Positions 12,543 through 64,000 of a stretch of 64,000 bases of DNA are shown here, one piece after another. The stretch is from Octopus sinensis (lineage: Eukaryota), in contig NW_021833461.1 in the NCBI RefSeq assembly GCF_006345805.1, forward strand, positions 9,540 through 73,539, given 5' to 3'. Under the pieces are notes generated by a model. That model did not search any database and was not told the origin of the DNA. It worked only from the letters and a program-made list of their open reading frames with translations. Positions within the stretch are counted from its first letter, which is position 1. The number at the start of each line of letters is the position of its first letter. Made by a program: the position numbers and the translations under genes.

Positions 12543-12572
<30 letters not shown>

Positions 12573-12573
<1 letters not shown>

Positions 12574-13235
12574 ATAGAAATATTAAAATTACTAAGTCTC
12601 TCTAAAAGAGAACAACGGCAGCGTTCCCGGAAAATATTAGTTATCGCCATACTAATATGGCATTCTTATAAAAATAAGAAAAAATAAGAAAAAAGCTGAC
12701 CGCTTATTAGCTCCATGAGGCCATCGCCTTAAGTTAGCTATTTGATACACATCTGTATCCATATAACCTTTGAACAAGGGAGGTCAGTCGCTCCACACTA
12801 CTTCTTATTTTCTTATTTTTTCTTATTTTTATAAGAATGCCATATTAGTATGGCGATAACTAATATTTTCCGGGAACGCTGCCGTTGTTCTCTTTTAGAG
12901 AGACTTAGTAATTTTAATATTTCTATTATTGAAAACAAGTGGATGTATTCCACCGAAGCTAGGTAAATAAAACCTTTGAACAGAGATTGTCGGAAGCGAC
13001 ACCTACTGGTTTGGCTACGCTGCATTGAAAAGGGGCAATACCCCGAAACGCGTCTGTAGCTGCCGGCCAAGTAGTGTGGAGCGACTGACCTCCCTTGTTC
13101 AAAGGTTATATGGATACAGATGTGTATCAAATAGCTAACTTAAGGCGATGGCCTCATGGAGCTAATAAGCGGTCAGCTTTTTTCTTATTTTTTCTTATTT
13201 TTATAAGAATGCCATATTAGTATGGCGATAACTAA

Positions 13236-13237
<2 letters not shown>
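12573..13237. mobile_element. Family A HHR element, head-to-head inverted insertion in (TA)n
   Basis: Left arm 12573-12803 is the reverse complement of the family A unit; right arm 12804-13237 carries the HHR. Confidence 0.85.
13019..13060 (+). ncRNA. Type I hammerhead, U3-A8 compensatory core
   Basis: GCTGCA-TTGAAAA-GGGG caata CCCC-GAAA-CGCG-TC-TGTAGC. Confidence 0.85.
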
Positions 13238-13303
<66 letters not shown>

Positions 13304-16037
13304 TTGTGTGTTCATAGAGGTGGCTCCATTAACCACTACTGCCTGGCTCCTATCTTTCAGGAAGTTATACAACCACACTCCAAGTTTTCCAGCTATGCCG
13401 AGGTCACGTAGTTTGTGGCATATCATACCATGATCCACCTTGTCAAAAGCTTTTGCAAAATCAAGGTAGATTACGTCCACATTTGATTTGTTGAGTAACT
13501 ACCTCAACACCCAGTCATAATGCTGTAAGAGCTGGGTCAGCCAGCTCCTACCTGGTCGAAAACCATGCTGGGTATTACTCAGCAAGTTATTTTCCTCAAG
13601 GAATGCGATTAGTTTCTTTCTAACTATCCGTTCCATGACTTTGCTGATGTGTGAAGTCAGAGAGATAGGCCTATAGTTTTTGGCATCTGCTCTACTTCCC
13701 CCTTTTTGTATTGGGCATATTATTCGCAAGAAAGCTCTGGAAGAGAATCTTGAGGGGTTTTGCCAGGGCATGCTTACACACTTTGAGGAGGATGGCTGGG
13801 AAACCGTCTGGACCAGCAGCTGAGTTTGTGTCCACTTCATCTATGGCTAGTAGGACATCTTTTTCGCTGATGTCAATACATTTTATTGTAACCGCCTCGC
13901 TGGTTATAGGTGAGGCGGCAAAGAAGTCCACTAGTTCGTTCACTTGTCTGTGTTCCAACGGGGTAGTAAAGACACTTTTGAACTGGTCATTTAGCATCTC
14001 ACTGATCATAGTTGGACTGTCTGTGAGGGAGCCTTTTGGAGGAGGGGTCCTATCTTGTAGTGCACTGAGACTGTTTCTTTCGCGTAATGAAAGAAGGCCT
14101 TTGGGTTTGATTTAATGTTTTTTATAACCCAGGCTTCTTTGTCTGCTTTCTCCTTCACATAGGATTGTTGCAGCCTTTTTTCGATCTCCATCAGTGTTGT
14201 TTTTAGGCGGGACGTTTCGCTACTTTTGGGATGTTGGTTGAGACGATTTGCAACCTTCGTCCGTCGTCTCATGAGGATCTTCCTGTCTCTTGGAATCTTG
14301 CTCCTATTTGTTTTGGCCTTGTGCTCTGGGACATATTTCTGGCATACGGCTTGCACAGAAGACATGAAACATTCTAGTTTCATGTCAATGTCTGGTGTGG
14401 AGAGACATTCCGGCCAGTCCTCTCTGAGGATCTCTTTTTGGATCGACTTCCAATCTGCTTTGTGGAAGTTCAGATTGGAGAGATTTCGGGTGCTTCCTTT
14501 AGGCTGTATGTCTCTGGTTACTTTCGGCCCAAACATAGACAGCTCTATTATGTTATGATCCGAAACTGATGTCGGTGTCACTTTTACATCATGAATGATG
14601 TCCATATTGTTCGTGAAGCAGAGATCCAGAATGTTATTCGCCTTAGTTGGCTTGAGTACAACTTGCTCCATGAATAAGGCATTGGTGAGGTTGAGCAGGG
14701 ACTCCACCTGTACTTGCTTGCAATGATTCATTCCTGAGAGTATGTGACCTTCGGGCCATTTGACGTTGGGGAAGTTGAAATCACCCATACGAAATATGGT
14801 CACGTGGTGTTCCAGATTCATGAGGATTTCTTTAATTCTTGTGAGGCAATCTTCAAACTTGCCTATGTGATTTGGGGGCAATATGTATTGCATATGACTA
14901 TATTATGTTGTCTTATGTATACAATTAAGGTGTCACATACCGAATTTGAGTATGTCATCAAGACCTGGGGTGTGAGGTCATCTCGGATGTATACAGCAAC
15001 TCCACCATGGCTCCTTTCCCTTCTGTCTGTTCGCAGTATGGCATAGTTTGGTATGTGTACTTCTGTGTCCTCTATATCAAGGTTGAGGTGAGTTTCCACA
15101 AGTGCTATGCATAGGGCTTGATTGCATGCAGTAAGATCTCTCAGGAAAGAAATTTTGTTTCTATTTTGATGCAACATGCCTCCAATATTTAGTAAAAGTA
15201 TTGGGGTGACGGCTGTGCAGGCGTTAGGGGAGGCCATGCTGTGTCTGTTGACTGCGGTGGTCTTGCATAGTGGTGGACAGGGTTCCTTCTCTGAGCTTGG
15301 TGTAGCAAGGTTAGCTGCCGGACAATTCTTTCCGCCATGCATAAAAAAGACTCTTGCTTAGCTGCTGCGTTGCGCAGAACATCTGAGGAGCGCACTTCGT
15401 TTTTGAAAGTTTTCCTGGGAGACATTTCTTGTGTTCCCTCGGTAAAGTTTTTCTCTTTGAGTCCCCTGAAGTTCTGGCGGGGTGTCGGGTGGGCGAACCG
15501 GCAGTTTTTGCCGTCCTCACCATGCCAACATTTGCCTCGCAGGTAGAACTTACAGGTTCTTCGGTGCCTTCCAGATTTCTTTTTCCTGAAGTGTACTGGG
15601 TGGCATTGGATCCTCCATGGGGTTCTCTGCTGTTTGTGTGGTGGGTTGGGGTTTCAGCTTTGGTTGTTTTGCCTTTTCCCTCCTTATTTTTGTTTTCGGT
15701 CCTTCCTTTTTTCTTCTGTTTTTCTAATTTTTCTAATTTTTCATTTCTTCGTAGGACCACTAGTACATAGGGGGCTTCCGGTTTCTGCTCCCTTGGCTCC
15801 CCTATCCTTCACTACTTGGTGGTTCACCGGGGTAGATGATCCATTTTCCTGAGGAACCCCTGGATCACAGAGACTTCCGGCTTCCTTCTCTTTTTCGTCC
15901 TCTTCATCCTCATCAGCCTTGCCACAATAATTTTCAATTATGTTGTCCAGTGTTTTGATGTGTGGTCTTATAATCATGTAAAACCGGATAAACTCATTTT
16001 TCTTCCGCTCTATCTGGTCAATGGTTCTATGAAAACC
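13304..16037 (-). mobile_element. CR1/L2-group LINE, frameshifted: ORF1 remnant, APE endonuclease and partial RT; truncated at both ends by (TA)n
   Basis: APE: LLLNIGG, IALVETHL, GGVAVY, MGDFNFP, NILDLCF, SDHNII. RT: AAGPDGFP, NYRPISLTS, QHGFRPGRS, YLDFAKAFDKVDH. Confidence 0.92.
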
Positions 16038-21225: not shown

Positions 21226-21616
21226 TAGAGAGACTTAGTAATTTTAATATTTCTATTATTGAAAACAAGTGGATGTATTCCACCGAAGCTAGGTAAATAA
21301 AACCTTCGAACAGAGATTGTCAGAAGCGACACCTACTGGTCTGGCTACGCTGCATTGAAAAGGGGCAATACCCCGAAACGCGTCTGTAGCTGCCGGTCAA
21401 GTAGTGTGGAGCGACTGACCTCCCTTGTTCGAAGGTTATATGGATACAGTTTGTGTATCAAATAGCTAACTTAAGGCGATGGCCTCATGGAGCTAATAAG
21501 CGGACAGCTTTATTCTTATTTTTATAAGAATGCCATATTAGTATGGCGATAACTATTATTTTCCGGGAACGCTGCCGTTGTTCTCTTTTAGAGAGACTTA
21601 GTAATTTTAATATTTC

Positions 21617-21621
<5 letters not shown>
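21226..21621 (+). mobile_element. Family A HHR element: one ~363-bp unit plus ~33-bp terminal redundancy
   Basis: agagagacttagtaattttaatatttctattat at both ends; (TA)n flanks. Confidence 0.88.
21349..21390 (+). ncRNA. Type I hammerhead (family A)
   Basis: Identical to 13019-13060. Confidence 0.85.
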
Positions 21622-21659
<38 letters not shown>

Positions 21660-21796: not shown

Positions 21797-21847
21797 ATTA
21801 TACATATATATATATTTATATATATATATTATATATATATATATATA

Positions 21848-22449
21848 TAAGAAATATTGAGTTTCTAAATCTCTCGTAGAGAGGTGTACGGTGGTGGAGC
21901 GATATAATGGTTGTATACTGTCAATCTAACAACAACGTGACAGTAGGGGGTACACCACCGTTATATAGCCCTAGGAGGCATCGAACGCCTCCTGACAGCT
22001 TCGACACATTTTATCCTGTGTCCTTATATACACATACGAAGGGGAGACAAACACCCCCAACTGCCGGAACTGCATCTAGGGACACCGTGTTTAAGGATCA
22101 TTGTCCTTCATCGGCCTAGAATAGCAGACACCGGTCAGCCGGCGATATCTGTCTCGACTTCGTATCTGTATATATCTATAGTCAGTGAAGTCTATTCACT
22201 GATTATCAAAATAAGAAATATTGAGTTTCTAAATCTCTCGTAGAGAGGTGTACGGTGGTGGAGCGATATAATGGTTGTATACTGTCAATCTAACAAGAAC
22301 GTGACAGTAGGGAGTACACCACCGTTATATAGCCCTAGGAGGCCTCGAACGCCTCCTGACAGCTTCGACACATTTTATCCTGTGTCCTTATATACACATA
22401 CGAAGGGGAGACAACACCCCCAACTGCCGGAACTGCATCTAGGAACTGC

Positions 22450-22450
<1 letters not shown>
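21848..22450 (-). mobile_element. Family B HHR element: 1.6 tandem units of 364 bp in (TA)n
   Basis: aagaaatattgag starts at 21849 and 22213. Confidence 0.88.
22075..22120 (-). ncRNA. Type I hammerhead (family B; U4C and G12U changes)
   Basis: Minus strand: TCTAGG-CCGATGA-AGGA caatga TCCT-TAAA-CAC g GTG-TC-CCTAGA. Confidence 0.75.
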
Positions 22451-24386: not shown

Positions 24387-24955
24387 TTGTCATCAAAAAA
24401 GGGGGTAGAATTAATTAATTGTTAATAAATTCGACCAAGCAGTATTCGGTATGTAAAGACCATTTACGGTAATTTGAAGTATTATTTATAAAAATATGGT
24501 AAAGTATAAAAATTCACTTTACCACACACCGAACTTTTCAGAAATAGCAGCCAAAGATTTGGCTATTTCTTCAACTGCAAATAAAAGTCTCCAGACAATG
24601 CATACTCAAAATAACTCACATAGGTATAAGGGAAAAACAATGAAAGATCACATCCATATACGATACCCGAGGACAGTCTGTTTCTGGATTTGTGGGTAAA
24701 ACGCCACTTTTCCTTCATCAGCTCAGAGATTTCTTCTGATTTAGATTTGAAAATACTAAGAATCAAACATACCCGTCCGATATCTGTAACAACGGACAAA
24801 CCATGCCAGACACCCAGTACTAGCGAATCCAAGGCATTGTCTGGAGACTTTTATTTGCAGTTGAAGAAATAGCCAAATCTTTGGCTGCTATTTCTGAAAA
24901 GTTCGGTGTGTGGTAAAGTGAATTTTTTTACTTTACCATATTTTTATAAATTAAT
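24387..24955. mobile_element. Family E HHR element with inverted arm, nested in the (TA)n of the PLE pLTR
   Basis: 24834-24950 is the reverse complement of ~24486-24601; host pLTR sequence resumes on both sides. Confidence 0.85.
24667..24726 (-). ncRNA. Type I hammerhead, canonical core (family E)
   Basis: Minus strand: CTGAG-CTGATGA-A-GGA aaa GTGG..CCAC aaa TCC-A-GAAA-CAG a CTG-TC-CTCGG. Confidence 0.85.
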
Positions 24956-25068
24956 ATATATGTATATATATATTTTTTTTTTCGATTCAATTTATTATTA
25001 TTATTACTAGTATTGTTGTTATACGTACATACATACATACATACAAGCATATGTAATGATAATAATGG

Positions 25069-27039
25069 GATGATGTGGACAATTGTTCTGGGACCCCAGA
25101 AACGTACAGGAAATAATTTCCAAGCCTGGAACAATGATATCCCGGCACTGTATGGACTTCGCAAGGACCATAAAATAATTACTGACCCTATAGCAGGACC
25201 ACCAACAAGACCAGTCTGTGGAGCGAATATCGCTAGCAATTACAGCATCTCCTACTTCCTCTCAATGATCATACGCCCTATAATCCGAATGTCACCTGAT
25301 GTTTGTGACAGCACAGAAGATCTCCTCAGCAGGATCGATGACTGTAACAGAACTTGTGACCTGACAGGATGTATGGTGGATAGCATGGATGTGGTATCCC
25401 TATACCCATCGATCGACGTAGATTTTGCGGTGGAGAAGTGCGTGGAGATGATCAATGAGAGCCAGGTGGAGTTCTGTAATGTCAACACAGAAGAACTGGG
25501 CCTCCTACTTAGACTGACATGTAATACTGAATACTTAGATAAACATAATCTTAGTAGTTTCTGCCCCAGTAGATGTTTAAGAGTAGGTAGACCGCCCAAA
25601 TTACTTCTATGACTAGGAAGACACATATAGAAAGATGGCGCGGATGGACCAGAGCCATACGGAGCCCTGCAAATGTCCATCAGATAAAGAAAATGATCGC
25701 ACATGCACTAGGAGCTAGTATAAGAATTACCCTAAAAGGCCACACGTTTAAGTTTAATAATAAAATATATGCCCAGGACGAGGGGGCAGCCATCGGCGTT
25801 AGTATCGCTGGTGATGTGGCCAACCTTTTCATGGTATGGTGGGACAGAAGGCTTAAAGAACGCCTAACACAGAACTCCATACTCGTAAACATGTACTCCC
25901 GTTATGTTGATGATATCAACATAGTGGTAAAGGCACCCCCACAAGAGAGCAATGTTGATATAGTAATAGAAACTAATACTATGGAGAGCATCCAGCAAAT
26001 AGCTAACTCCATCCACCAGAGTATTAAGGTCACAATAGACTACCCCACTAAACACCCCAACCATAGACTACCAGTACTAGACACCGAACTCTGGCTAGAA
26101 ATTGTGAATAATAAAACCCAAATCCTTTATTCATACTATGCCAAACCTATGGCCTCAAAATACTTGATCCACCGGAACTCAGCCATTGCGGACAATGCCA
26201 AATTCAATATTTTGATGGCAGACCTCGTCAGAATAATGAGAAATGTGCCATGCATGTGCGAGCCCACAGAGTTAAAGAGACACATACAATATTTCATTCA
26301 CCGCATGCAGTTCTCAGGTTACAGCCATAAAGAAAGGATCAGAGTATACAAAGGAGCCATTAAGAAATTTGATAATATATTATGTAATGATAGGAATGGT
26401 ATTTGCCCACTCTATAGGAACAAGTCATGGAACACTATAGAAAGGACAAAAAATAAAATAGGGAAGGTCAACTCTTGGTATGATAGCCATAAATACCAGA
26501 GTGTCATGTTCGTTGACACCACTCCTGGAGGTGAACTGGCGTATCGCTTTAGAAGGACCCTAGACAAACTTAAGCTAAGAATTAAGGTTGTTGAAAAGCC
26601 AGGCAACCCTATCAAATCTATAATTGGTAGAACCTATCCTTTTAGTAGAAGCCCCTGTACAGATAGGTACTGTACTGTATGTAGATTTAGCCCACAAACA
26701 AACTGTAAAGCCAGAAATATGGTCTATAGTATAAGATGTATAGAGGGACGATGCAGTAACAAGACAACGACATACGTAGGGGAAACGGCAAGAAGCATAG
26801 GAGAGCGGGTAAATGAGCATTGGAGACAACTCAAAGAAGGTAAAAGCTCATCGATTCTGTACCAACACGCCGAACAAAAACATGGGGGATCAATCAATAA
26901 CATAGAAATTAAAATATTATCCACACATAGATCAGATGCAACAATTAGACAAATTACAGAAGCTACACACATAATAGAAAATAAACCTAGCCTGAATAGA
27001 AAACTAGAATGGAGCACTAACACACACCACAACATATGA
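25069..27039 (+). pseudogene. Penelope-like RT + C-terminal GIY-YIG endonuclease, 5'-truncated, one frameshift near 25600
   Basis: LYGLRKDHK, PPTRPVCGA, SMDVVSLYPSI, GAAIGVSIAGDVANLFM, YSRYVDD, CTDRYCTVC..C, VYSIRC..YVGETARSIGERVNEH, EA..I..NKPSLN. Confidence 0.93.
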
Positions 27040-27532
27040 CGATAGAGGATCGTGAAAACATAATAAATACACAGATAAATAAATAAATAACTATATATAT
27101 ATATATGTGTGTGTATATGTATATGTATATATATATTTTTTTTTCGATTCAATTTATTATTATTATTACTAGTATTGTTGTTATACATACATACATACAT
27201 ACATACATACATACATACATACATACATACATACATACAAGCATATGTAATGATAATAATGGGTGGATGTAAACATATGAACAAAATAAGAATAAAAACA
27301 AAAAACAAAATACAAAATACAAAATACAAATTATATGAACATATAAAATTACAAATTACATGAACATATATAAACAGAAGATACAAATATTACAGGCATC
27401 CCCACATACACACACTAAATAAACATAAACACACATAGAGATATAAGCATGCGCAAATGAAGACATACAATAGAAATACAAAATGGCTGACGGTTAGTAA
27501 GGAGAGACACAAATAAGTGAGAAGAAAACAAA

Positions 27533-27577
27533 GGACCACTGATGCGGTCACAGGAGTGTGACGAAAGAACTCTGGCC
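27533..27577 (+). ncRNA. Minimal hammerhead variant in the 3' pLTR (CUGAUGC core)
   Basis: GGACCA-CTGATGC-G-GTCAC aggagt GTGAC-GAAA-G aa C-TC-TGGCC; same strand as the ORF. Confidence 0.7.
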
Positions 27578-27755
27578 GAAATAAGATTAAGATTAATGTA
27601 AAAAATAAATAACACTGAAGCAAAGTAACACCAATATATAGTGCGTGTGCTTTTTATTTATTGCTAAACTGGCAAAATGACCATTCCGAAATATACAATA
27701 TCTGTTTCAACACACGACTTCACATAAAAAATCTTGCACAACAAATATTTAAACG

Positions 27756-27792
<37 letters not shown>

Positions 27793-28544: not shown

Positions 28545-28664
28545 CATATATTCTTTTATTGCTTTATTTGTTTCTGTCATTTGACTGCGGTCATGCTGAA
28601 ACAAATAAAAGAACAAAAGAATATATAGCTATATATATATATATATTATATATATATATATATA

Positions 28665-28836
28665 AAAGTTGAGTTGTGGGGTATCGCACGAGTGGGATTA
28701 TATAAGAAAAAAGGTTTGAAAATGCAATTTAAACGATGTTTATTTACTTAAATGTAACTTTTGACAATCTTTTACCAAAGAGTGAAACCGGTTAAGTAAA
28801 TAAACATCGTTTAAATTGCATTTTCAAACCTTTTTT

Positions 28837-28840
<4 letters not shown>
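28665..28840. mobile_element. Family K foldback fragment with the 3' half of an HHR
   Basis: ~52-bp inverted arms (28699-28751 / 28792-28843); spacer ends GAAA-CCGG-TT-AAGTAA. Confidence 0.65.
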
Positions 28841-29430: not shown

Positions 29431-29650
29431 AAGAACATCTGAAAAATGAAATACCTAGAAATGGATAATGTGGTACCGGTTTCAGATTCTTCAAAATACG
29501 TCTGCCAACATATATTTGACTTATCCTCATCAGCCACATATACCTCGACAATATTTCAAATGTTGCCACATCTATGCCAGTACACTCGTCTGAACGCCAA
29601 AACGTTGACAGAACGAGAACAGTGAAGAAGTTTCAATGAAAATAGTATCG
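29428..29650 (-). mobile_element. Family M HHR element fragment, 3' end in (TA)n
   Basis: Contains a canonical HHR; abuts the 5' end of a truncated LINE. Confidence 0.7.
29468..29539 (-). ncRNA. Type I hammerhead, canonical core (family M)
   Basis: Minus strand: ATGTGG-CTGATGA-GGAT..ATCT-GAAA-CCGG-TA-CCACAT. Confidence 0.9.
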
Positions 29651-30385
29651 ACATGAGTGATGATACCTCTTTCCAAGTGCACATTACCAGGATGGTGACA
29701 AAGTTCAGACGACTGGGTGGGTGGATCCTAAGAACATTCAGAACCAGAGATAAGGAAACCATGATGGTCCTCTGGCGGACATTCGTCCTCAGTCGCCTGG
29801 ATTACTGCTCACAGCTATGGTCACCCACCAGTGTAAAATTAACAGCGGACCTTGAAGCAATCCAGAGAAGATTCACAGAGAGAATCGTCTCTTTGCAACA
29901 GCTCAGCTACTGGGAAAGATTGAAACAGCTAAGACTCTACTCCCTGGATAGAAGACGGGAGAGGTAATATATGTCTGGAAGATCCTGGAAGGAATTGTAC
30001 CAAATTTTGGCATTGTAAGCTACACCAATGCTAGAACGGGACGACACTGCATAGTGCCAAAGATCCCAGCAATGCCGTCACGCTTCAGGACCAGCTTCTG
30101 CAACAGCCTGGGCTTCAAGAGCCCACAGCTTTTTAATATTCTTCCAAAGAGTCTGGGGAACTTGCACAAAGTAGATGTAGCGGTTTTTAAATCAAAGCTG
30201 GACATCTTCCTGTCGAGAGTCCCAGATGAACCTACCTCACGGCAAGAGGTGCGAATGAGAGTAGCTATATCAAACTCCATTCTTCACCAAGTGCCACATA
30301 TTAGACGAGGTTCTTCGCAATAACAGTGTAGCACAAAACGGCGGTGCATCAGCATGACCGCAGCTCTGAGCTGAAACTAGAAAAA
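29651..30385 (+). mobile_element. 3' fragment of CR1/L2-group LINE
   Basis: GWILRTF, SRLDYCSQLWSP, LEAIQRRFT, YWERLKQLRLYSLDRRRER; colinear with 63278-64000. Confidence 0.9.
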
Positions 30386-30516: not shown

Positions 30517-31200
30517 CCAATTAAGTACTGAACACGAAAAAGTGGACAGTCAACATGCTAGATATAGACGTCAAATCGCCATTCTCCACAAAAGATTATG
30601 TTCTCAGATCAAACTCAACACCAACCCAAGCAATAAACAAGTGAAAATATACGAAAAACAATACTCATCCATGTACTGAATCAGTTTCTACTATTATTAT
30701 CCGTAAGGATACCCGTAGTCTTCGTCAGCATGGCCGATATGAATGCAATCTGCTGAACTAGATGCAAAAACGATACCGGAGTTTCATCATGTGCGTAGAG
30801 TTCAACCAATTACATTCGAATGTGTATTTCAAATGCCTTCCACCTTGGCGCGTTGAGACCCGAAGAAAATAGCCTGCAGCTAATAATTAGCAGCAGTCAA
30901 TTTATCGGTTAGAGAACATATTTATTTTTTATAAAATTAATAAGGGTAGAAATCAATATTTATCAATTAAAACCAGTGGTCTAGCATATTAAAAAAATCC
31001 GAAGATTAAATATTTATATATACCAATTAAGGACTGAACACGAAAAAGTGGACAGTCAACATGCTGTCTATATCTAGCATGTTGACTGTCCACTTTTTCG
31101 TGTTCAGTCCTTAATTGGTATATATAAATATTTAATCTTCGGATTTTTTTAATATGCTAGACCACTGGTTTTAATTGATAAATATTGATTTCTACCCTTA

Positions 31201-31210
<10 letters not shown>
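30515..31210. mobile_element. Family H HHR element: ~505-bp unit, terminal redundancy and inverted arm
   Basis: ataccaattaag at ~30515 and ~31020; 31066-31207 is an inverted copy spanning the unit junction. Confidence 0.87.
30669..30733 (-). ncRNA. Type I hammerhead, canonical core (family H)
   Basis: Minus strand: CCATG-CTGACGA-AG-ACTA..TATCC ttac GGATA..TAGT-A-GAAA-CTGA t TCAG-TA-CATGG. Confidence 0.87.
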
Positions 31211-43344: not shown

Positions 43345-44514
43345 GCAGTTTCGCACCTCTCCTTGAAAAATGCATTTTCTTGAAAAAATTATTTCGGATT
43401 CCTACGTTTAAGATCTCGGAGATTACGAATATGCGAAAATTGTAATTTGTTTGTTTAACGTAGTTTGATTTTTCGAATTTTAACCAATCCTATGCTCTCT
43501 TTTGAGCTAAAATCATTTGTTGTCTAAAACTGAGACAACATCCTGTAACTAACCCTAAACCTCAACCCTAACCCTAAATTTTGTTTTTTCTTAATTGTTA
43601 AATTAATTTAATTGTTACGCGTGTAAAAAAAACTAAAGCAATGGAATTAAATTAATTTAACAATTAAGAAAAAAAATTAGGGTTAGGGTTAGGGGGAGGT
43701 TTAGGGTTAGTTACAAGATGTCTCGGTTTTAGACGCAGCAAATGATTTTAGTTGAATGGAGGTAATCGATTGGTTAAAATTGCCGAAATGCTCGGATTTT
43801 CAGACGAAATATCTTACAAACTATAGAATTTTCTCAATAAAACCAAGAGAAAATGATGTTTTATAAACACATTCTACCAGTATACGAAGTTTAAAAGTGT
43901 TTAGTTAACTAGAAATTGTGTTGCCATCTGCCGTTCAAAAGGAAAAGATCCGATTTCGAATATGCAAGAAACCAGGTTTTCAAAATTTTAAATTCAATAA
44001 GCATATAGATAGGTGTATGAAGAGATAGTTAGATATGAATGTCTTCCTGGGGCTAAAAACAACAGTAACGCCGTCTTCTATACGACCGCCACATTTAATT
44101 GACAAATATATTTTTTTGAATATACGGACAAGGATAAATAGATAGACAAATAAATAAATGGATGAAAAAGTTCAAAATTTAAAATTGAGGGAAGGGGTGA
44201 CATTTGAGCTCCTTATTAAACTTTATAACATTAATTATTAAACATTAATGTTTGTTTCTCATAAAATGGTGTCTAATTCTTATTTACACAAGTAAAACGC
44301 AAATTCTCTTCAGTTTAATGTTTTTGTCTGGATTTAATTTCGATTTGCATATGCTCGTCAATTCGCTACGATCTTTTTCAAGTTAACAAAATCAAAAATT
44401 TTTAATGGGGAGGGGGGCTAAATTACATATTCGTAATCTCCGACATCTAAAACGTAGGAATCCGAAAAAAATTTTTCAAAAAACTGCATTTTTCAAGGAG
44501 AGGTGCGAAACTGC
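43345..44514. mobile_element. Non-autonomous TIR element
   Basis: ~90-bp TIRs GCAGTTTCGCACCTCTCCTTGAAAAATGCA...; TSD unclear. Confidence 0.8.
43476..43782. repeat. Internal long inverted repeat with (CCCTAA)/(TTAGGG) units
   Basis: Arms ~43476-43615 and ~43645-43782. Confidence 0.8.
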
Positions 44515-56108: not shown

Positions 56109-57103
<995 letters not shown>

Positions 57104-57286
57104 TAAAAGGGCTTAGTAAAATAAATTACTTTGCCGCATACTGAACTCATTAGAAATAGCAGCTAAAAAAACTTTTTTAAAACTATTCTAATACTTAAAG
57201 AAAACCTCTCTCATATAGTGTTTGCTCAATTCAACTCACGAAAGTATGGGGGTAGAGACATTAAAAAATCAAATGCAAAGGTTATT

Positions 57287-57339
57287 TGAGAACGTACGTT
57301 TCAAGATTAGTCAAACTCGACATTTCTATCATCAGCTCA
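57287..57339 (-). ncRNA. Type I hammerhead (family F, copy 1)
   Basis: Reverse complement of 59037-59089. Confidence 0.8.
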
Positions 57340-57844
57340 GAACTCCCTGGTTTGGATTTGAAAACACTGAAAGTGGGAGCATACCCTTTCGGCTTCTTAT
57401 CGCTTCTGAAGATCTGCTCGAAACTAACAGTGCCAACAAACTCAAAAATGCAAGCGAAGAATTTCTGCTCTCCCCTTTCCACCAGCGTGGGTTAAAATCA
57501 GCAAACACTATGCTTTTTTCGATAAAATTCGAGGCATTATATAGAGAGAGATGAATTATAATTTCAACAATTGAGGGTAAAATTAATTAATTAATCAATT
57601 TCACCAAGTATTCAGTATGCAAAGGGACCATTTAAGGCGAATTCAAATTATTACATTATATAAAAGGGCTTAGTAAAATAAATTACTTTGCCGCATACTG
57701 AACTCATTAGAAATAGCAGCTAAAAAAACTTTTTTAAAACTATTTCTAATACTTAAAGAAAGCCTCTCTCATATAGTGTTTGCGCAATTCAACTCACGAA
57801 AGTATGGGGGTAGAGACATTAAAAAATCAAATGCAAATGTTATT

Positions 57845-57897
57845 TGAGAACGTACGTTTCAAGATTAGTCAAACTCGACATTTCTATCATCAGCTCA
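57845..57897 (-). ncRNA. Type I hammerhead (family F, copy 2)
   Basis: Reverse complement of 59037-59089. Confidence 0.8.
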
Positions 57898-58402
57898 GAA
57901 CTCCCTGGTTTGGATTTGAAAACACTGAAAGTGGGAGCATACCCTTTCGGCTTCTTATCGCTTCTGAAGATCTGCTCGAAACTAACAGTGCCAACAAACT
58001 CAAAAATGCAAGCGAAGAATTTCTGCTCTCCCCTTTCCACCAGCGTGGGTTAAAATCAGCAAACACTATGCTTTTTTCGGTAAAATCCGAGGCATTATAT
58101 AGAGAGAGATGAGTTATAATTTCAACAATTGAGTGTAAAATTAATTAATTAATCAATTTCACCAAGTATTCAGTATGCAAAGGGACCATTTAAGGCGAAT
58201 TCAAATTATTACATTATATAAAAGGGCTTAGTAAAATAAATTACTTTGCCGCATACTGAACTCATTAGAAATAGCAGCTAAAAAAACTTTTTTAAAACTA
58301 TTTCTAATACTTAAAGAAAACCTCTCTCATATAGTGTTTGCGCAATTCAACTCACGAAAGTATGGGGGTAGAGACATTAAAAAATCAAATGCAAAGGTTA
58401 TT

Positions 58403-58455
58403 TGAGAACGTACGTTTCAAGATTAGTCAAACTCGACATTTCTATCATCAGCTCA
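58403..58455 (-). ncRNA. Type I hammerhead (family F, copy 3)
   Basis: Reverse complement of 59037-59089. Confidence 0.8.
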
Positions 58456-59036
58456 GAACTCCCTGGTTTGGATTTGAAAACACTGAAAGTGGGAGCATAC
58501 CCTTTCGGCTTCTTATCGCTTCTGAAGATCTGCTCGAACCTTTGCATTTGATTTTTTAATGTCTCTACACCCATACTTTCGTGAGTTGAATTGAGCAAAC
58601 ACTATATGAGAGAGGTTTTCTTTAAGTATTAGAAATAGTTTTAAAAAAGTTTTTTTAGCTGCTATTTCTAATGAGTTCAGTATGCGGCAAAGTAATTTAT
58701 TTTACTGAGCCCTTTTATATAATGTAATAATTTGAATTCGCCTTAAATGGTCCCTTTGCATACTGAATACTTGGTGAAATTGATTAATTAATTAATTTTA
58801 CCCTCAATGTTGAAATTATAATTCATCTCTCTCTATATAATGCCTCGGTTTTACCGAAAAAAGCATAGTGTTTGCTGATTTTAACCCACGCTGGTGGAAA
58901 GGGGAGAGCAGAAATTCTTCGCTTGCATTTTTGAGTTTGTTGGCACTGTTAGTTTCGAGCAGATCTTCAGAAGCGATAAGAAGCCGAAAGGGTATGCTCC
59001 CACTTTCAGTGTTTTCAAATCCAAACCAGGGAGTTC

Positions 59037-59089
59037 TGAGCTGATGATAGAAATGTCGAGTTTGACTAATCTTGAAACGTACGTTCTCA
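59037..59089 (+). ncRNA. Type I hammerhead (family F, copy 4)
   Basis: TGAG-CTGATGA-T-AGA aat GTC..GAC taa TCT-T-GAAA-CGTACG-TT-CTCA; palindromic ACGTACGT helix III. Confidence 0.82.
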
Positions 59090-59596
59090 AATAAGCTTTG
59101 CATTTGATTTTTTAATGTCTCTACCCCCATACTTTCGTGAGTTGAATTGAGCAAACACTATATGAGAGAGGTTTTCTTTAAGTATTATAAATAGTTTTAA
59201 AAAAGTTTTTTTAGCTGCTATTTCTAATGAGTTCAGTATGCGGCAAAGTAATTTATTTTACTGAGCCCTTTTATATAATGTAATAATTTGAATTCGCCTT
59301 AAATGGTCCCTTTGCATACTGAATACTTGGTGAAATTGATTAATTAATTAATTTTACCCTCAATTGTTGAAATTATAATTCATCTCTCTCTATATAATGC
59401 CTCGGATTTTACCGAAAAAAGCATAGTGTTTGCTGATTTTAACCCACGCTGGTGGAAAGGGGAGAGCAGAAATTCTTCGCTTGCATTTTTGAGTTTGTTG
59501 GCACTGTTAGTTTCGAGCAGATCTTCAGAAGCGATAAGAAGCCGAAAGGGTATGCTCCCAATTTCAGTGTTTTCAAATCCCAAAACCAGGGAGTTC

Positions 59597-59649
59597 TGAG
59601 CTGATGATAGAAATGTCGAGTTTGACTAATCTGAAAACGTACGTTCTCA
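59597..59649 (+). ncRNA. Type I hammerhead (family F, copy 5)
   Basis: As copy 4, with TCT-GAAAA variant. Confidence 0.75.
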
Positions 59650-60004
59650 AATAAACTTTGCATTTGATTTTTTAATGTCTCTACCCCCATACTTTCGTGA
59701 GTTGAATTGAGCAAAACTATATGAGAGAGGTTTTCTTTAAGTATTAGAAATAGTTTTAAAAAGTTTTTTTAGCTGCTATTTCTAATGAGTTCAGTATGCG
59801 GCAAAGTAATTATTTTACTAAGCCCTTTTATATAATGTAATAATTTGAATTCGCCTTAAATGGTCCCTTTGCATACTGAATACTTGGTGAAATTGATTAA
59901 TTAATTAATTTTACCCTCAATTGTTGAAAATATATATATATATATAAATATATAAATATATATATATATATATGTATACTATATATATATATATATATAT
60001 TAAA

Positions 60005-60120: not shown

Positions 60121-60285
60121 GTATATATATATAAATAAATATATATATATATATATGTATATATATGTATATATATATATATATATATAAATATATATAT
60201 ATATTATATATATATGTTATATATATATGTATAATATATATAAATATATATATATATATATAAATAATATATTATAATATATATA

Positions 60286-60568
60286 GCAACGAATTGCTTA
60301 CCAAATACCGAATTTAGAAATAGCAGTCAAAGTATTTCTTACTAAAAAGGGAGATGTCAGTAAAAAACAGCAATTGCTGTTTTTACTGAGATCTCCCTTT
60401 TTAGTAGAAGAAATAGCTATAACTCTTTGACTGCTATTTCTAAATTCGGTATGTGGTAAGGCAATTCGTTGCTAAACCCTTTATTGCTTATTATTACTTA
60501 AATTTTTCCTTAAATACTTGGTGTAATTGATAATTATTCCAAATTAATTAATTTCACCCTTCATTATT

Positions 60569-60572
<4 letters not shown>
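60286..60572. mobile_element. Family L foldback fragment related to families E/F
   Basis: Imperfect arms centred on cagcaattgctg (~60368-60379), plus a ~100-bp tail ending aattaattaatttcaccc; shares gctatttct..ttcggtatgtggtaa with E. Confidence 0.75.
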
Positions 60573-60906: not shown

Positions 60907-63900
60907 AACCCAAGCCGCAGGTGGGACTACCCACTATATATACCAGACCACCACAGCAAACAGACACAGGATGGACACCGCCGGCAACAACGTACACCTC
61001 ACCTCGATACTCCTACTGAACATCAGAGGACTGCAAACACGCAGTAACAGGACAAAGATCCCGTCCTGAGAGACTTTGTTGCATGCAATCAGCCTTATGC
61101 ATAGCACTTACAGAAAAGCACCTCTAACCGGACAGAGCAGATGCGGAGTTACACATACCGCAGTATGCTGTACTACGGACCGACAGGAAAGAAAGGAGTC
61201 ATGGAGGTGTTGCTATGTACATCCGTGAGGACCTCACACCCAGGTCCTCTTGTTATACTCAAACTCGATGTGTGACACACTAATTATACATATTAGGCAA
61301 CTTGAGTAGTTGTGTGTGTGCTACATATCGCCCTCCAGATGCCCAAGCCATGTGGGCAAGTTTGAAGACTGCCTTATAAAAATAGAAGAAATTCTAACCA
61401 CATTAGAACAACACATAGGTGTGCTTCTATGGGAGACTTCAATCTGCCCAATGTCAGATGGCCCGAGGGCCTTTCTCTCCCAGGAATGACAAGATGTGAA
61501 CGAGGACAGGCGAGGTCCCTCCTGAACCTCATCAAACCCTGTACATGGAGCAGGTAATACTCCAACAACCAGGGCAGGTAACACACTGGATCTCTGCTTC
61601 ACAAATGACATGGATCTCATCCATAATGTGAAAGTGACACCGACACTACTCTCGGATCACAACATGATAGAGCTGACCATGTACGGGCCAAAAGAGAGCA
61701 CGGACATGCAGCCTACAAGAAACCCTCAAAATCTTTCCAGCTTGAACTACCATAAGGCAACTGGAAACAAATTGAGAAAGAGATCCTCAAACAAAACTGG
61801 CCTAAATGTCTCTCCTCGCCAGACATCGACGTGAAACTTCAACAATTCATGTCTGTAATGCAAGCCATATGCTACAAATGTGTCCCAGAGAGAAAGGCCA
61901 CTGTACACAAGAACAAAATCCCCAGAGAGAGGAAAATTTAATGAGACGGCGTACGAAATTTTCAAATCGCCTAAACAAACAGATTGAAAGCAGTGAAAAG
62001 TCCCGCCTAAAATAAAACTATGGGAAATCGAAAAATGTCTGCAACTCTCCCATGAAAAAGAAAGAGCAGACAAAGAAGCCTGGGCTATAGAAAACATAAA
62101 ATCAACCCCGGAGCTTTCTACAGGTATGCCAAAGAAACAGCTACAGTGCACTGTAGAATAGGGCCACTCTCGAAAGGATGGCACACTTACAGGAAACCAA
62201 TGAGGGTAAGTGAAATACTGAATGAGCAATTCAAGAGTGTTTTCACTCCACCCCTTGGGCATCTCCAAATCACCAATCCAATCCAACTGACTTTTTTACC
62301 ACTGCAGATATAAAATCAGAGGCGGCGACGATAGATTACATCGATATAAAGGAAGACGATGTAACCAAGGCTATAGATGAAATGAAAACAGACTCAGCTA
62401 CTGGCCCCGATGGATTCCCGGCAATCCTCCTAAAAGCATGTAAGAGAGTCCTAGCAAGACCACTGCAGTTCCTCTTTCAGAGCTTCCTTGCAGCTGGCAA
62501 ACTTCCAGGAAAACTGAAGGAAGGTAAAATATGCCCCATTCATAAAGGAGGTAGCAGAGCGGAAGCCAAGAACTATAGACCTATCTCTCTGACCTCACAC
62601 ATCAGCAAGGTCATGGAACGAATAGTCAGAAGGAAGCTGATCACCTTCCTTGAAGAGAATGACTTGCTGCCCGACACCCAACATGGTTTCCGACCAGGAA
62701 GAAGCTGCTTAACTCAGCTCCTACAACACTATGACTGGGTGCTGAAACGGCTGCTCAACCACTCAAATGTGGAAGTGATATATCTCGACTTTGCAAAGGC
62801 CTTTGATAAAGTCGATCATGGAATGATATGTCACAAACTGCGTGATAGTTGGAAAACTGGGAGAATGGCTTCATGACTTTCTGAAGGATAGAAGTCAGGT
62901 GGTAGTAGCCAATGGGGCCACCTCATTTAACACACAAATAGTGAGCGGTGTTCCGCAGGGCACTGTTCTGGGACCACTACTGTTCATAATGGCCCTCTCA
63001 GACATGCCCTCAGCCACGCAGAGAGCCACGATCACAAGTTATGCAGATGATACAAAAGTTTCACAGGCAATACAGAACCCTGAGGACACTAAACACCTGC
63101 AATGTGAGCTGGACGAATATACAAGTGGGCTGAAAGAATAGCATGCAGTTCAATGCTGGAAAGTTTCAAGCTTTATACTATCAGCATGCAAAACTGAATG
63201 CAATACCCAATGAATACACTGGACCCGGAGGGATTGCAATCCAAGAGGCACAATCAGTGCGTGACCTGGGTATTCACATGAGTGATGACGCGACCTTTCA
63301 TGTACATTTTGCTAAACTGACAATGAAATGTAGACGGCTGGCTGGCTGGATTCTTAGAACCTTAGAACAAGAGAACAAGAAACCATGATGGTCCTCTGGA
63401 AGACACTTGTCCTAAGCCACATTGACTATGCTCTCAGCTATGGTCACCATCCAGTGTCAAGTTGATCACAGAACTTGAGGCGCCCAACGAAGCTACACAA
63501 AGAAGATAGCTCTATGCAGAATGTAAGCTACTGGGAAAGACTCAAGAGATTAAAATTATATTCCCTGGAGCGTAGGCGGGAAAGATATGCCATAATATAC
63601 ATCTGGAAGATCCTGGAGGGAAGTGTCCTGAACTTTGGCATCGAGAGTTACGCAAACGCCAGAACTGGGCGCCACTGCGTGGTGCCTAGGACTCCAAACC
63701 TGCCATCAAGATGTAGGACAAGATTCTGTGATAGCCTGGGCTTCCGAGGCCCACAGCTCTTCAATATCCTCCCGAAGAACCTGAGAGACCGGCATGGGGT
63801 GGATACAGATGTCTTTAAAATGAAGCTGGATCTCTTCCTGTCAGGTGTCCCAGATGAACCAACTTCACGGCAGGAGGGGCAGATGAGGGCAGCTGCATCG

Positions 63901-64000
63901 AACTCTCTCATGCACCAAATAGCAGTTGCTAGAAAAGCCTCCATGAAGTGAAACCAAGTAGCAACACCAAATGGCGGTGCCCCAGCATGAAACTAGAATC
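60907..64000 (+). mobile_element. CR1/L2-group LINE, nearly complete but frameshifted ORF2 (APE+RT) and 3' end
   Basis: ILLLNIRG, GGVAMY, MGDFN, LSDHNMI, ATGPDGFP, DFAKAFDKVDH, SGVPQGTVLGPLLF, YADDTK, LYSLERRRERY; stop at 63951; tail ggcggtgccccagcatg. Confidence 0.94.

What the first reader, a model, noticed from the sequence alone, without database searches (positions are those of the whole stretch)
24387..24955. Covarying 3' hairpin and ACCC end motif shared by divergent HHR families E, F, H, L (and K)
Seen on the HHR strand. F pairs TTCAGTATGC..CAAAG with CTTTGCATACTGAA. E pairs TTCGGTGTGT..TAAAG with CTTTACATACCGAA (compensatory changes). H has a different sequence in the same place, TCTAGCATGTTGA / TTAATATGCTAGA. 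All are followed by (C/T)TGG..AATT..AATT..ACCC, and the element ends ~10-15 nt later in (TA)n (24387, 59929, 31207, 60572; K at 28665). L retains only the 5' strand of the hairpin. Inference: this is a conserved cis-acting RNA signal for recognition and priming by the mobilising RT.
Basis: partly seen in the sequence, partly recalled or inferred. Interest (0 to 1): 0.75.

Follow-up and report, generated by a model that had tools for sequence, protein, structure and literature searches.

The report
Folded RNA ruler in octopus retrozymes
About thirty related families of small, protein-free jumping repeats in an octopus genome keep the same predicted RNA fold, and their copies end at two fixed points just behind two of its stems, so the fold likely tells a borrowed Penelope-type copying enzyme where to start.

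Summary
The hairpin is real but is only part of the feature. E, F, H and L are hammerhead retrozymes (510-600-nt tandem units). Their stem (P1) closes a three-way junction (P2, P3) and is followed by a second hairpin (P4), whose base is the 'TGG...ACCC' motif. In 27 subfamily representatives P1 is 95.5% paired. A tree-aware test gives 7 of 239 unpaired cells against 86 expected; no single pair is significant on its own. Intact L copies have the full stem. ACCC is not essential: families Z, Y5 and W have GAT/ATC instead. Copies have two 3' ends, not one, both in (TA)n: typically 9-15 nt behind P2 or behind P4. 70 of 84 head-to-head insertions carry one of each. This is the Penelope 'tail', here 91-105 nt instead of 30-40. 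K is different: it is the end of an autonomous Neptune-type element without the fold. No autonomous partner with the fold was found. This scan has reported octopus retrozymes with two fixed ends before, on other DNA. I found the shared covarying fold neither in the scan notes shown to me nor in print.

The parts
24387..24956 (.). Family E retrozyme insertion, head-to-head: long arm on - (24832 to 24387, long end) and short arm on + (24834 to 24956, short end); sits in the TA tract of an inverted terminal repeat of the Neptune-like element N1
24666..24728 (-). Type I hammerhead motif of E (stem I included; predicted cut after GUC)
24524..24533 (-). E, P1 5' strand
24498..24523 (-). E, P2 hairpin; the short end lies in the A/U-rich junction behind it
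24459..24470 (-). E, P3 hairpin
24445..24454 (-). E, P1 3' strand
24404..24436 (-).
57100..59929 (.). Family F array of 558-nt units, head-to-head: - arm 58541 to 57100 (short end), + arm 58537 to 59929 (long end); five hammerhead motifs
59790..59915 (+). F, last P1-P2-P3-P4 domain
30517..31207 (.). Family H insertion (510-nt unit), head-to-head: - arm with hammerhead at 30669-30733 and short end near 30517; + arm with P1 31073-31161, cUUCGg P3 31134-31145, P4 31167-31196 and long end at 31207
60285..60572 (.). Family L insertion (599-nt unit), head-to-head, truncated; P2 with UUCG loop 60455-60478, P4 60520-60558; this copy has lost about 22 nt including the P1 3' strand
28664..28840 (.). K: 3' end of an autonomous Neptune-type element (N2), head-to-head, tail about 41 nt; does not carry the domain
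25070..27757 (+). Neptune-like element N1 (RT, CxxC linker, GIY-YIG), (TA)n-targeted, tail about 57 nt; a candidate enzyme donor, but without the domain

Best explanation
E, F, H and L are protein-free hammerhead repeats whose copies end at two fixed points in (TA)n, one behind stem P2 and one behind stem P4 of a predicted 150-nt RNA fold that the families conserve, and this fold is likely the handle that a borrowed Neptune-type Penelope RT-endonuclease binds to start cDNA synthesis at those two internal sites. SHOWN HERE: tandem units with type I hammerhead motifs; pairing kept across about 30 subfamilies; two end classes, typically 9-15 nt behind a stem; one short plus one long end per head-to-head insertion; 116 of 227 complete arms run through at least one hammerhead cut site. 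INFERRED: (1) arrays are transcribed and give circles or uncut multimers; (2) an RT-endonuclease dimer binds the fold and nicks both strands of a TA tract; (3) one subunit primes in the junction behind P2 and the other behind P4, perhaps helped by a few TA-like bases at each site; (4) both cDNAs run towards the RNA 5' end, stop at variable points and are joined head-to-head.
For: PAIRING. Sequence-only alignment of 10 F-lineage families: RNAalifold predicts P1, P2, P3 and P4 unaided; 97.6% of cells are paired, 8 of 33 pairs change on both sides, and 0 of 500 shuffles reach this. For 27 representatives aligned to the model, P1 is 95.5% paired and 8 of 10 pairs change on both sides. Tree-aware test of P1: 52 substitution events, 7 of 239 cells unpaired against a null mean of 86 (p=0.0003); with MAFFT alone, 19 of 242 against 91 (p=0.0003); a slid control gave p=0.69. 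22 of 27 sequences fold with z below -2. STRAND. G-U 17 versus A-C 2 in P1, and 25 versus 0 in the F lineage; cUUCGg loops occur in H-lineage P3. ENDS. 233 of 246 ends fall in two classes, all flanked by TA; 70 of 84 inverted insertions are long+short. Long+long occurs in 3 of 73 cases against 38% expected under independence, p=8e-12. OUT OF SAMPLE. Family Z (GAT/ATC at the P4 base, no ACCC) has 12 short and 5 long ends among 18, and 3 of 3 inversions are long+short. Family W (2,254 pattern matches, control 0) shows the same layout by eye. PRECEDENT. In vitro, the Anolis Poseidon protein extends both nicked strands from two internal RNA sites that bound the tail (PMC11167929).
Against: No autonomous element with the fold was found. 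The ends of six Neptune-like families (N1, N2/K, N3, N5, N6, N7) were mapped: tails are 30-57 nt and the models gave no hit belonging to them. These families make short and long ends without the fold. An R-scape-like test found no single pair significant among all 10,878 pairs. Same-branch double changes in P1 are not significant on the MAFFT-only alignment (4 versus 1.7, p=0.08). P4 pairing is weak in the F lineage alone (p=0.19). Seven of the 27 representatives (Y1-Y5, X1b, Z) were found by the model itself, and nine H-lineage ones were reached through a pattern or loci anchored partly on the P1 3' strand. End windows for E, F, H and L were set after seeing the data. Distances scatter in E (7-29 nt, n=14). 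Loci were chosen with queries containing P4, so short+short insertions are under-sampled. No RNA data were obtained.
Confidence: 0.68

Rival explanations
1. The fold is conserved for the life of the RNA itself (stability of a circle, localisation, escape from silencing). The ends are set only by short TA-like patches that anneal to the nicked target, and their distance to the stems is inherited.
For: Both sites contain TA-like bases, up to 8 nt shared with the target in H. Autonomous Neptune families make two ends without this fold. Retrozyme circles are described as highly self-paired (PMC7229834).
Against: The units are A/T-rich throughout, yet only 13 of 246 ends fall elsewhere. The spacing behind the stems persists in Z and W, whose sequences differ. 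The Anolis enzyme starts at sites not homologous to the target.
Confidence: 0.2
2. The signal works as DNA: the endonuclease recognises or cuts hairpins in a DNA intermediate, and the two ends are resolution sites, not RT start sites.
For: Craig et al. ascribe the tail to endonuclease-mediated resolution (PMC8557442). The D. virilis tail was needed for endonuclease recognition, as cited in PMC11167929. Sense-strand single-stranded DNA would also tolerate G-T.
Against: The G-U over A-C bias puts the structure on the RNA-sense strand, not on first-strand cDNA. UUCG loops are an RNA feature (established knowledge). The tail ends matched RT start sites in vitro.
Confidence: 0.1

Closest known systems
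Metazoan non-LTR retrozymes (Cervera and de la Pena 2020, PMC7229834; Li, Clavereau and Pollet 2026, bioRxiv 10.64898/2026.07.22.740005)
   Same: Non-coding tandem units, each with a type I hammerhead; A/T-rich; proposed to be non-autonomous Penelope-like elements.
   Different: Units of 470-600 nt (170-400 nt in the 2020 paper, 51-972 in the preprint). In the text I read, neither paper describes insertion ends or a conserved non-ribozyme RNA domain. Supplements were not seen.
Penelope-like element tail and internal initiation (Poseidon of Anolis, Frangieh et al. 2024, PMC11167929; Craig et al. 2021, PMC8557442; Adineta Penelope, PMC3846280)
   Same: Two internal sites bounding a tail; tail usually on one end only; head-to-head inverted insertions; A/T-rich or (TA)n targets; hammerhead upstream.
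   Different: Tail of 91-105 nt instead of 30-40; no ORF; sites are A/U-rich single strands behind stems, not an AC-rich stem-loop; the fold is supported by comparison across families. Supplementary Fig. S1/S2 of PMC11167929 were not seen and may show a related fold.
Non-autonomous Chlamys elements such as MRC1 (PMC8557442, passage read)
   Same: Non-autonomous Penelope-like elements with head-to-tail copies.
   Different: They resemble their autonomous partners at the 3' end; here no such partner was found. Most Chlamys elements lack canonical hammerheads.
Telomerase RNA template boundary and LINE/SINE 3' stem-loops (recalled, no call)
   Same: An RNA helix at a set distance from where a related RT starts or stops.
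   Different: Analogy only. Here two stems would set two starts on opposite target strands.

Membership tests
Non-LTR retrozyme | Type I hammerhead motif in each unit | tested here: met
   E, F, H and L; Z; W. Long stem II and short palindromic stem III. The Rfam E-value scan listed no hammerhead among the 150 of 158 rows shown.
Non-LTR retrozyme | Tandem non-coding units, A/T-rich | tested here: met
   562, 558, 510 and 599 nt; no RT ORF upstream in 20 + 18 variant loci; domain GC about 0.22-0.35.
Non-LTR retrozyme | Self-cleavage and circular RNA in vivo | not testable with these tools
   Only assembled contigs were available. Arms crossing cut sites fit circles or uncut multimers equally.
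Penelope-like element (works like) | Tail present at one end; head-to-head inverted insertions | tested here: met
   70 of 84 inversions are long+short.
Penelope-like element (works like) | Microsatellite target, as in Neptune, Naiad and Hydra | tested here: met
   All 233 long or short ends are flanked by TA.
Penelope-like element (works like) | Tail of 30-40 nt | tested here: not met
   91-105 nt.
Autonomous Penelope-like element | RT + GIY-YIG ORF | tested here: not met
   Absent from E, F, H, L, Z and W; present upstream of K.
Non-autonomous derivative of a named autonomous family | 3' region shared with an autonomous partner | tested here: inconclusive
   None among N1-N7; N4 ends were not resolved; only the best-scoring loci of two protein searches were examined.

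The most novel reading that the evidence does not exclude
The domain is a two-stem ruler, a telomerase-RNA-like handle, that seats the two subunits of a Penelope RT dimer on one RNA so that each primes one strand of a cut TA tract. Octopus retrozymes evolved it themselves as a high-affinity RT aptamer; it was not copied from any autonomous terminal repeat.
Probability: 0.25. Interest if true: 0.82.

Novelty: new variant of a known kind. Interest (0 to 1): 0.6.

Why it matters
How Penelope RTs, the sister group of telomerase, choose their RNA and their two internal start sites is open, as is which enzyme moves animal retrozymes. A 150-nt non-coding domain with about 30 natural variants, mapped ends and built-in compensatory changes makes both questions directly testable in the existing in vitro assay. 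It could also define a minimal cis element for Penelope-based DNA writing.

Tried and rejected
(1) ACCC as a free end motif: rejected; it is paired and replaced by ATCC with a GAT partner in Z, Y5 and W, and absent in V1. (2) K as a member: rejected. (3) Helitron, MITE or satellite: rejected because of the hammerheads, the variable inversion junctions and the two-end rule. (4) Excess of 5' ends at the hammerhead cut (15 of 246): discarded as an artefact; most of these rows continue upstream, and the alignment stopped at the start of my reference. (5) Model R1 had P4 one column out of register, so the P4 row and the P4 pairs are void; this was fixed in R2. (6) The per-pair covariation test was negative. 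(7) The 'last matching base' rows are confounded by homopolymer length variants and were not used. (8) Partner search: protein searches, variant patterns and model scans of Penelope loci found none. A Penelope ORF beside a W copy was a separate N7 insertion. (9) Sequencing runs: no RNA holder is on record, and contigs cannot show ends or circles. (10) The Rfam rows shown are below their gathering scores and mostly fall on simple repeats.

Full report
SETTING. The window lies in a 2.72-Gb animal genome. Its Penelope-like protein N1 is 99% identical over the searched part to a hypothetical Octopus vulgaris protein, so the host is taken to be an octopus.

WHAT THE ELEMENTS ARE. E, F, H and L are tandem units of 562, 558, 510 and 599 nt. 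Each has one type I hammerhead motif with a long stem II and a short palindromic stem III. E, F and L are 67-74% alike over the region in question; H shares only short words with them. First-look candidates were 2,187 for E, 371 for F, 1,119 for H and 96 for L; these are not copy numbers. The P4 pattern has 6,981 genome matches against 0 for the reversed control. This is the layout of metazoan non-LTR retrozymes.

THE OBSERVATION. The quoted stem (P1) is present in E, F and H. On a sequence-only alignment it gives 12 predicted pairs, 6 with changes on both sides and none broken. The structure is larger than a hairpin. On 10 F-lineage families RNAalifold predicts P1 closing a junction with P2 and P3, followed by P4, whose base is GGT/ACC. 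A further hairpin upstream of P1 was seen by eye only. In the H lineage RNAalifold recovered P1 and P4 but not P2, whose register shifts between families; folding single sequences shows it.

MORE FAMILIES. Variant patterns and model scans gave G, F2-F4, X1-X3, X1b, H1b-H7, Y1-Y5, Z, V1, V2 and W, about 30 in all; 27 were aligned.

COVARIATION. P1 is 95.5% paired and 8 of 10 pairs change on both sides (alignment fitted to the model). My tree-aware null keeps the number of changes per column and scatters them over branches. P1: 52 events, 7 of 239 cells unpaired against 86 (p=0.0003), and 10 same-branch double changes against 1.5 (p=0.0003). With MAFFT alone: 19 of 242 against 91 (p=0.0003), and 4 against 1.7 (p=0.08). 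Within lineages on MAFFT alignments: P1 p=0.019 and 0.011, P2 p=0.0003, P3 p=0.012, P4 p=0.19; a slid control gave p=0.69. A per-pair test in the style of R-scape found nothing significant among 10,878 pairs. The helices are therefore supported as wholes, not pair by pair. G-U outnumbers A-C 17 to 2 in P1 and 25 to 0 in the F lineage (cells, not events), which places the fold on the hammerhead strand.

TWO ENDS. Of 246 outer 3' ends in E, F, H and L loci, 129 lie behind P4, 104 lie in the junction behind P2, and 13 lie elsewhere; all 233 classed ends meet TA repeats. Of 84 head-to-head insertions, 70 are long+short, 8 long+other, 3 long+long, 2 short+other and 1 short+short. Long+long would be 38% under independence (p=8e-12). 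Short+short is under-sampled because the queries contained P4. The pure TA run starts a modal 10 and 15 nt behind P2 and P4 in F, 9 and 12 in H, and 13 and 14-19 in L; E scatters. The tail between the sites is 91-105 nt. The end windows were set, so the real test is out of sample. Family Z (495 nt, P4 base GAT/ATC, no ACCC) has 12 short, 5 long and 1 other end among 18, and 3 of 3 inversions are long+short. Family W (2,254 matches, control 0) also has GAT/ATC and the same ends by eye. The ends follow the stems, not the word ACCC. 116 of 227 complete arms cross at least one hammerhead cut site and 47 cross two or more, so many templates were circles or uncut multimers.

K AND THE PARTNER. K continues upstream through a microsatellite-rich stretch into an RT, CxxC linker and GIY-YIG ORF; it is an autonomous Neptune-type end with a tail of about 41 nt. 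N1, N3, N5, N6 and N7 also insert in (TA)n with two ends and tails of 30-57 nt. The models find nothing belonging to these ends; the hits in those loci are separate retrozyme insertions. An ACCC word does occur in the tails of N2, N3, N5, N6 and N7, but not N1. It occurs in 119 of 1,600 40-nt tiles of the window. The partner enzyme remains unidentified; a Neptune-type one is inferred from the shared target and end pattern.

MECHANISM. The Anolis Poseidon protein nicks and extends both target strands, starts at two internal RNA sites that bound the genomic tail, and is predicted to be a dimer (PMC11167929). The ends here fit that scheme and add a candidate positioning device: each site lies in single-stranded A/U-rich RNA a short, similar distance behind a stem closed near CC. 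Binding, nicking, priming and joining are inferred; none was tested.

LITERATURE SEEN. PMC11167929: parts 1-2 of 4 (main text, start of methods), no supplements. PMC8557442: abstract, sections 6, 11 and 15, and passages. bioRxiv 10.64898/2026.07.22.740005: parts 1-3 of 5, abstract to discussion, supplements closed. PMC7229834, PMC13282606 and PMC3846280: passages only. Searches listed no paper on a conserved non-ribozyme RNA domain framing Penelope or retrozyme ends; other hits were seen as listings only, and subscription journals are largely missing. Earlier notes of this scan describe octopus retrozymes with two fixed ends on other DNA; the few lines shown do not mention this fold.

VERDICT. 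A real feature and a new variant of a known kind. The element class and the tail are known. The shared, selectively maintained fold that tracks both ends appears new and is testable. Interest 0.6.

Noticed in passing
window 12571-13240, 21226-21622, 1-265: Another repeat family in TA tracts with head-to-head copies and two ends about 65 nt apart; different sequence; my hammerhead scan listed nothing there.
   Followed up: no
window about 27558-27595 (+) and L206-L235: The hammerhead-like motif of N1 lacks the canonical A9 in all 27 rows shown; most read CUGAUGC.
   Followed up: partly
L327, L335-L358, 3' of the ORF: Neptune family N6 has a hammerhead-like motif whose core reads UUGAAAA (U3-A8 in place of C3-G8) in all 13 copies shown.
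   Followed up: partly
tails of N2/K, N3, N5, N6, N7 (L295, L305, L333, L339, L362): An ACCC word recurs in the tails of five of six autonomous Neptune-like families; N6 has TTTTCACCCTT near its end, as do retrozymes L and H3-H6.
   Followed up: partly
E, F, G and L units, about 80-110 nt behind P4 (F: window 58888-58905): A conserved G-rich word of the form CACG..GGTGG..GGG in otherwise diverged sequence; possibly a promoter element.
   Followed up: no
window 29473-29541 (-): A further type I hammerhead motif of another repeat family, also seen in L012 and L052.
   Followed up: no
window 43523-43733: Inverted repeat with TTAGGG-like arms; gives sub-threshold Rfam microRNA hits.
   Followed up: no
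window 13301-15269, 29707-30290, 60939-64000: Related LINE-like fragments, about 71% alike; CR1/L2-like by eye, not tested.
   Followed up: no
window 21847-22450: Two-copy repeat of about 364 nt between TA tracts.
   Followed up: no
window 24387-24956; L229:1-900: Retrozymes nest in or beside Penelope ends: E sits in the TA tract of an N1 terminal repeat, and Z abuts an N1 short end. Shared targeting builds these clusters.
   Followed up: partly
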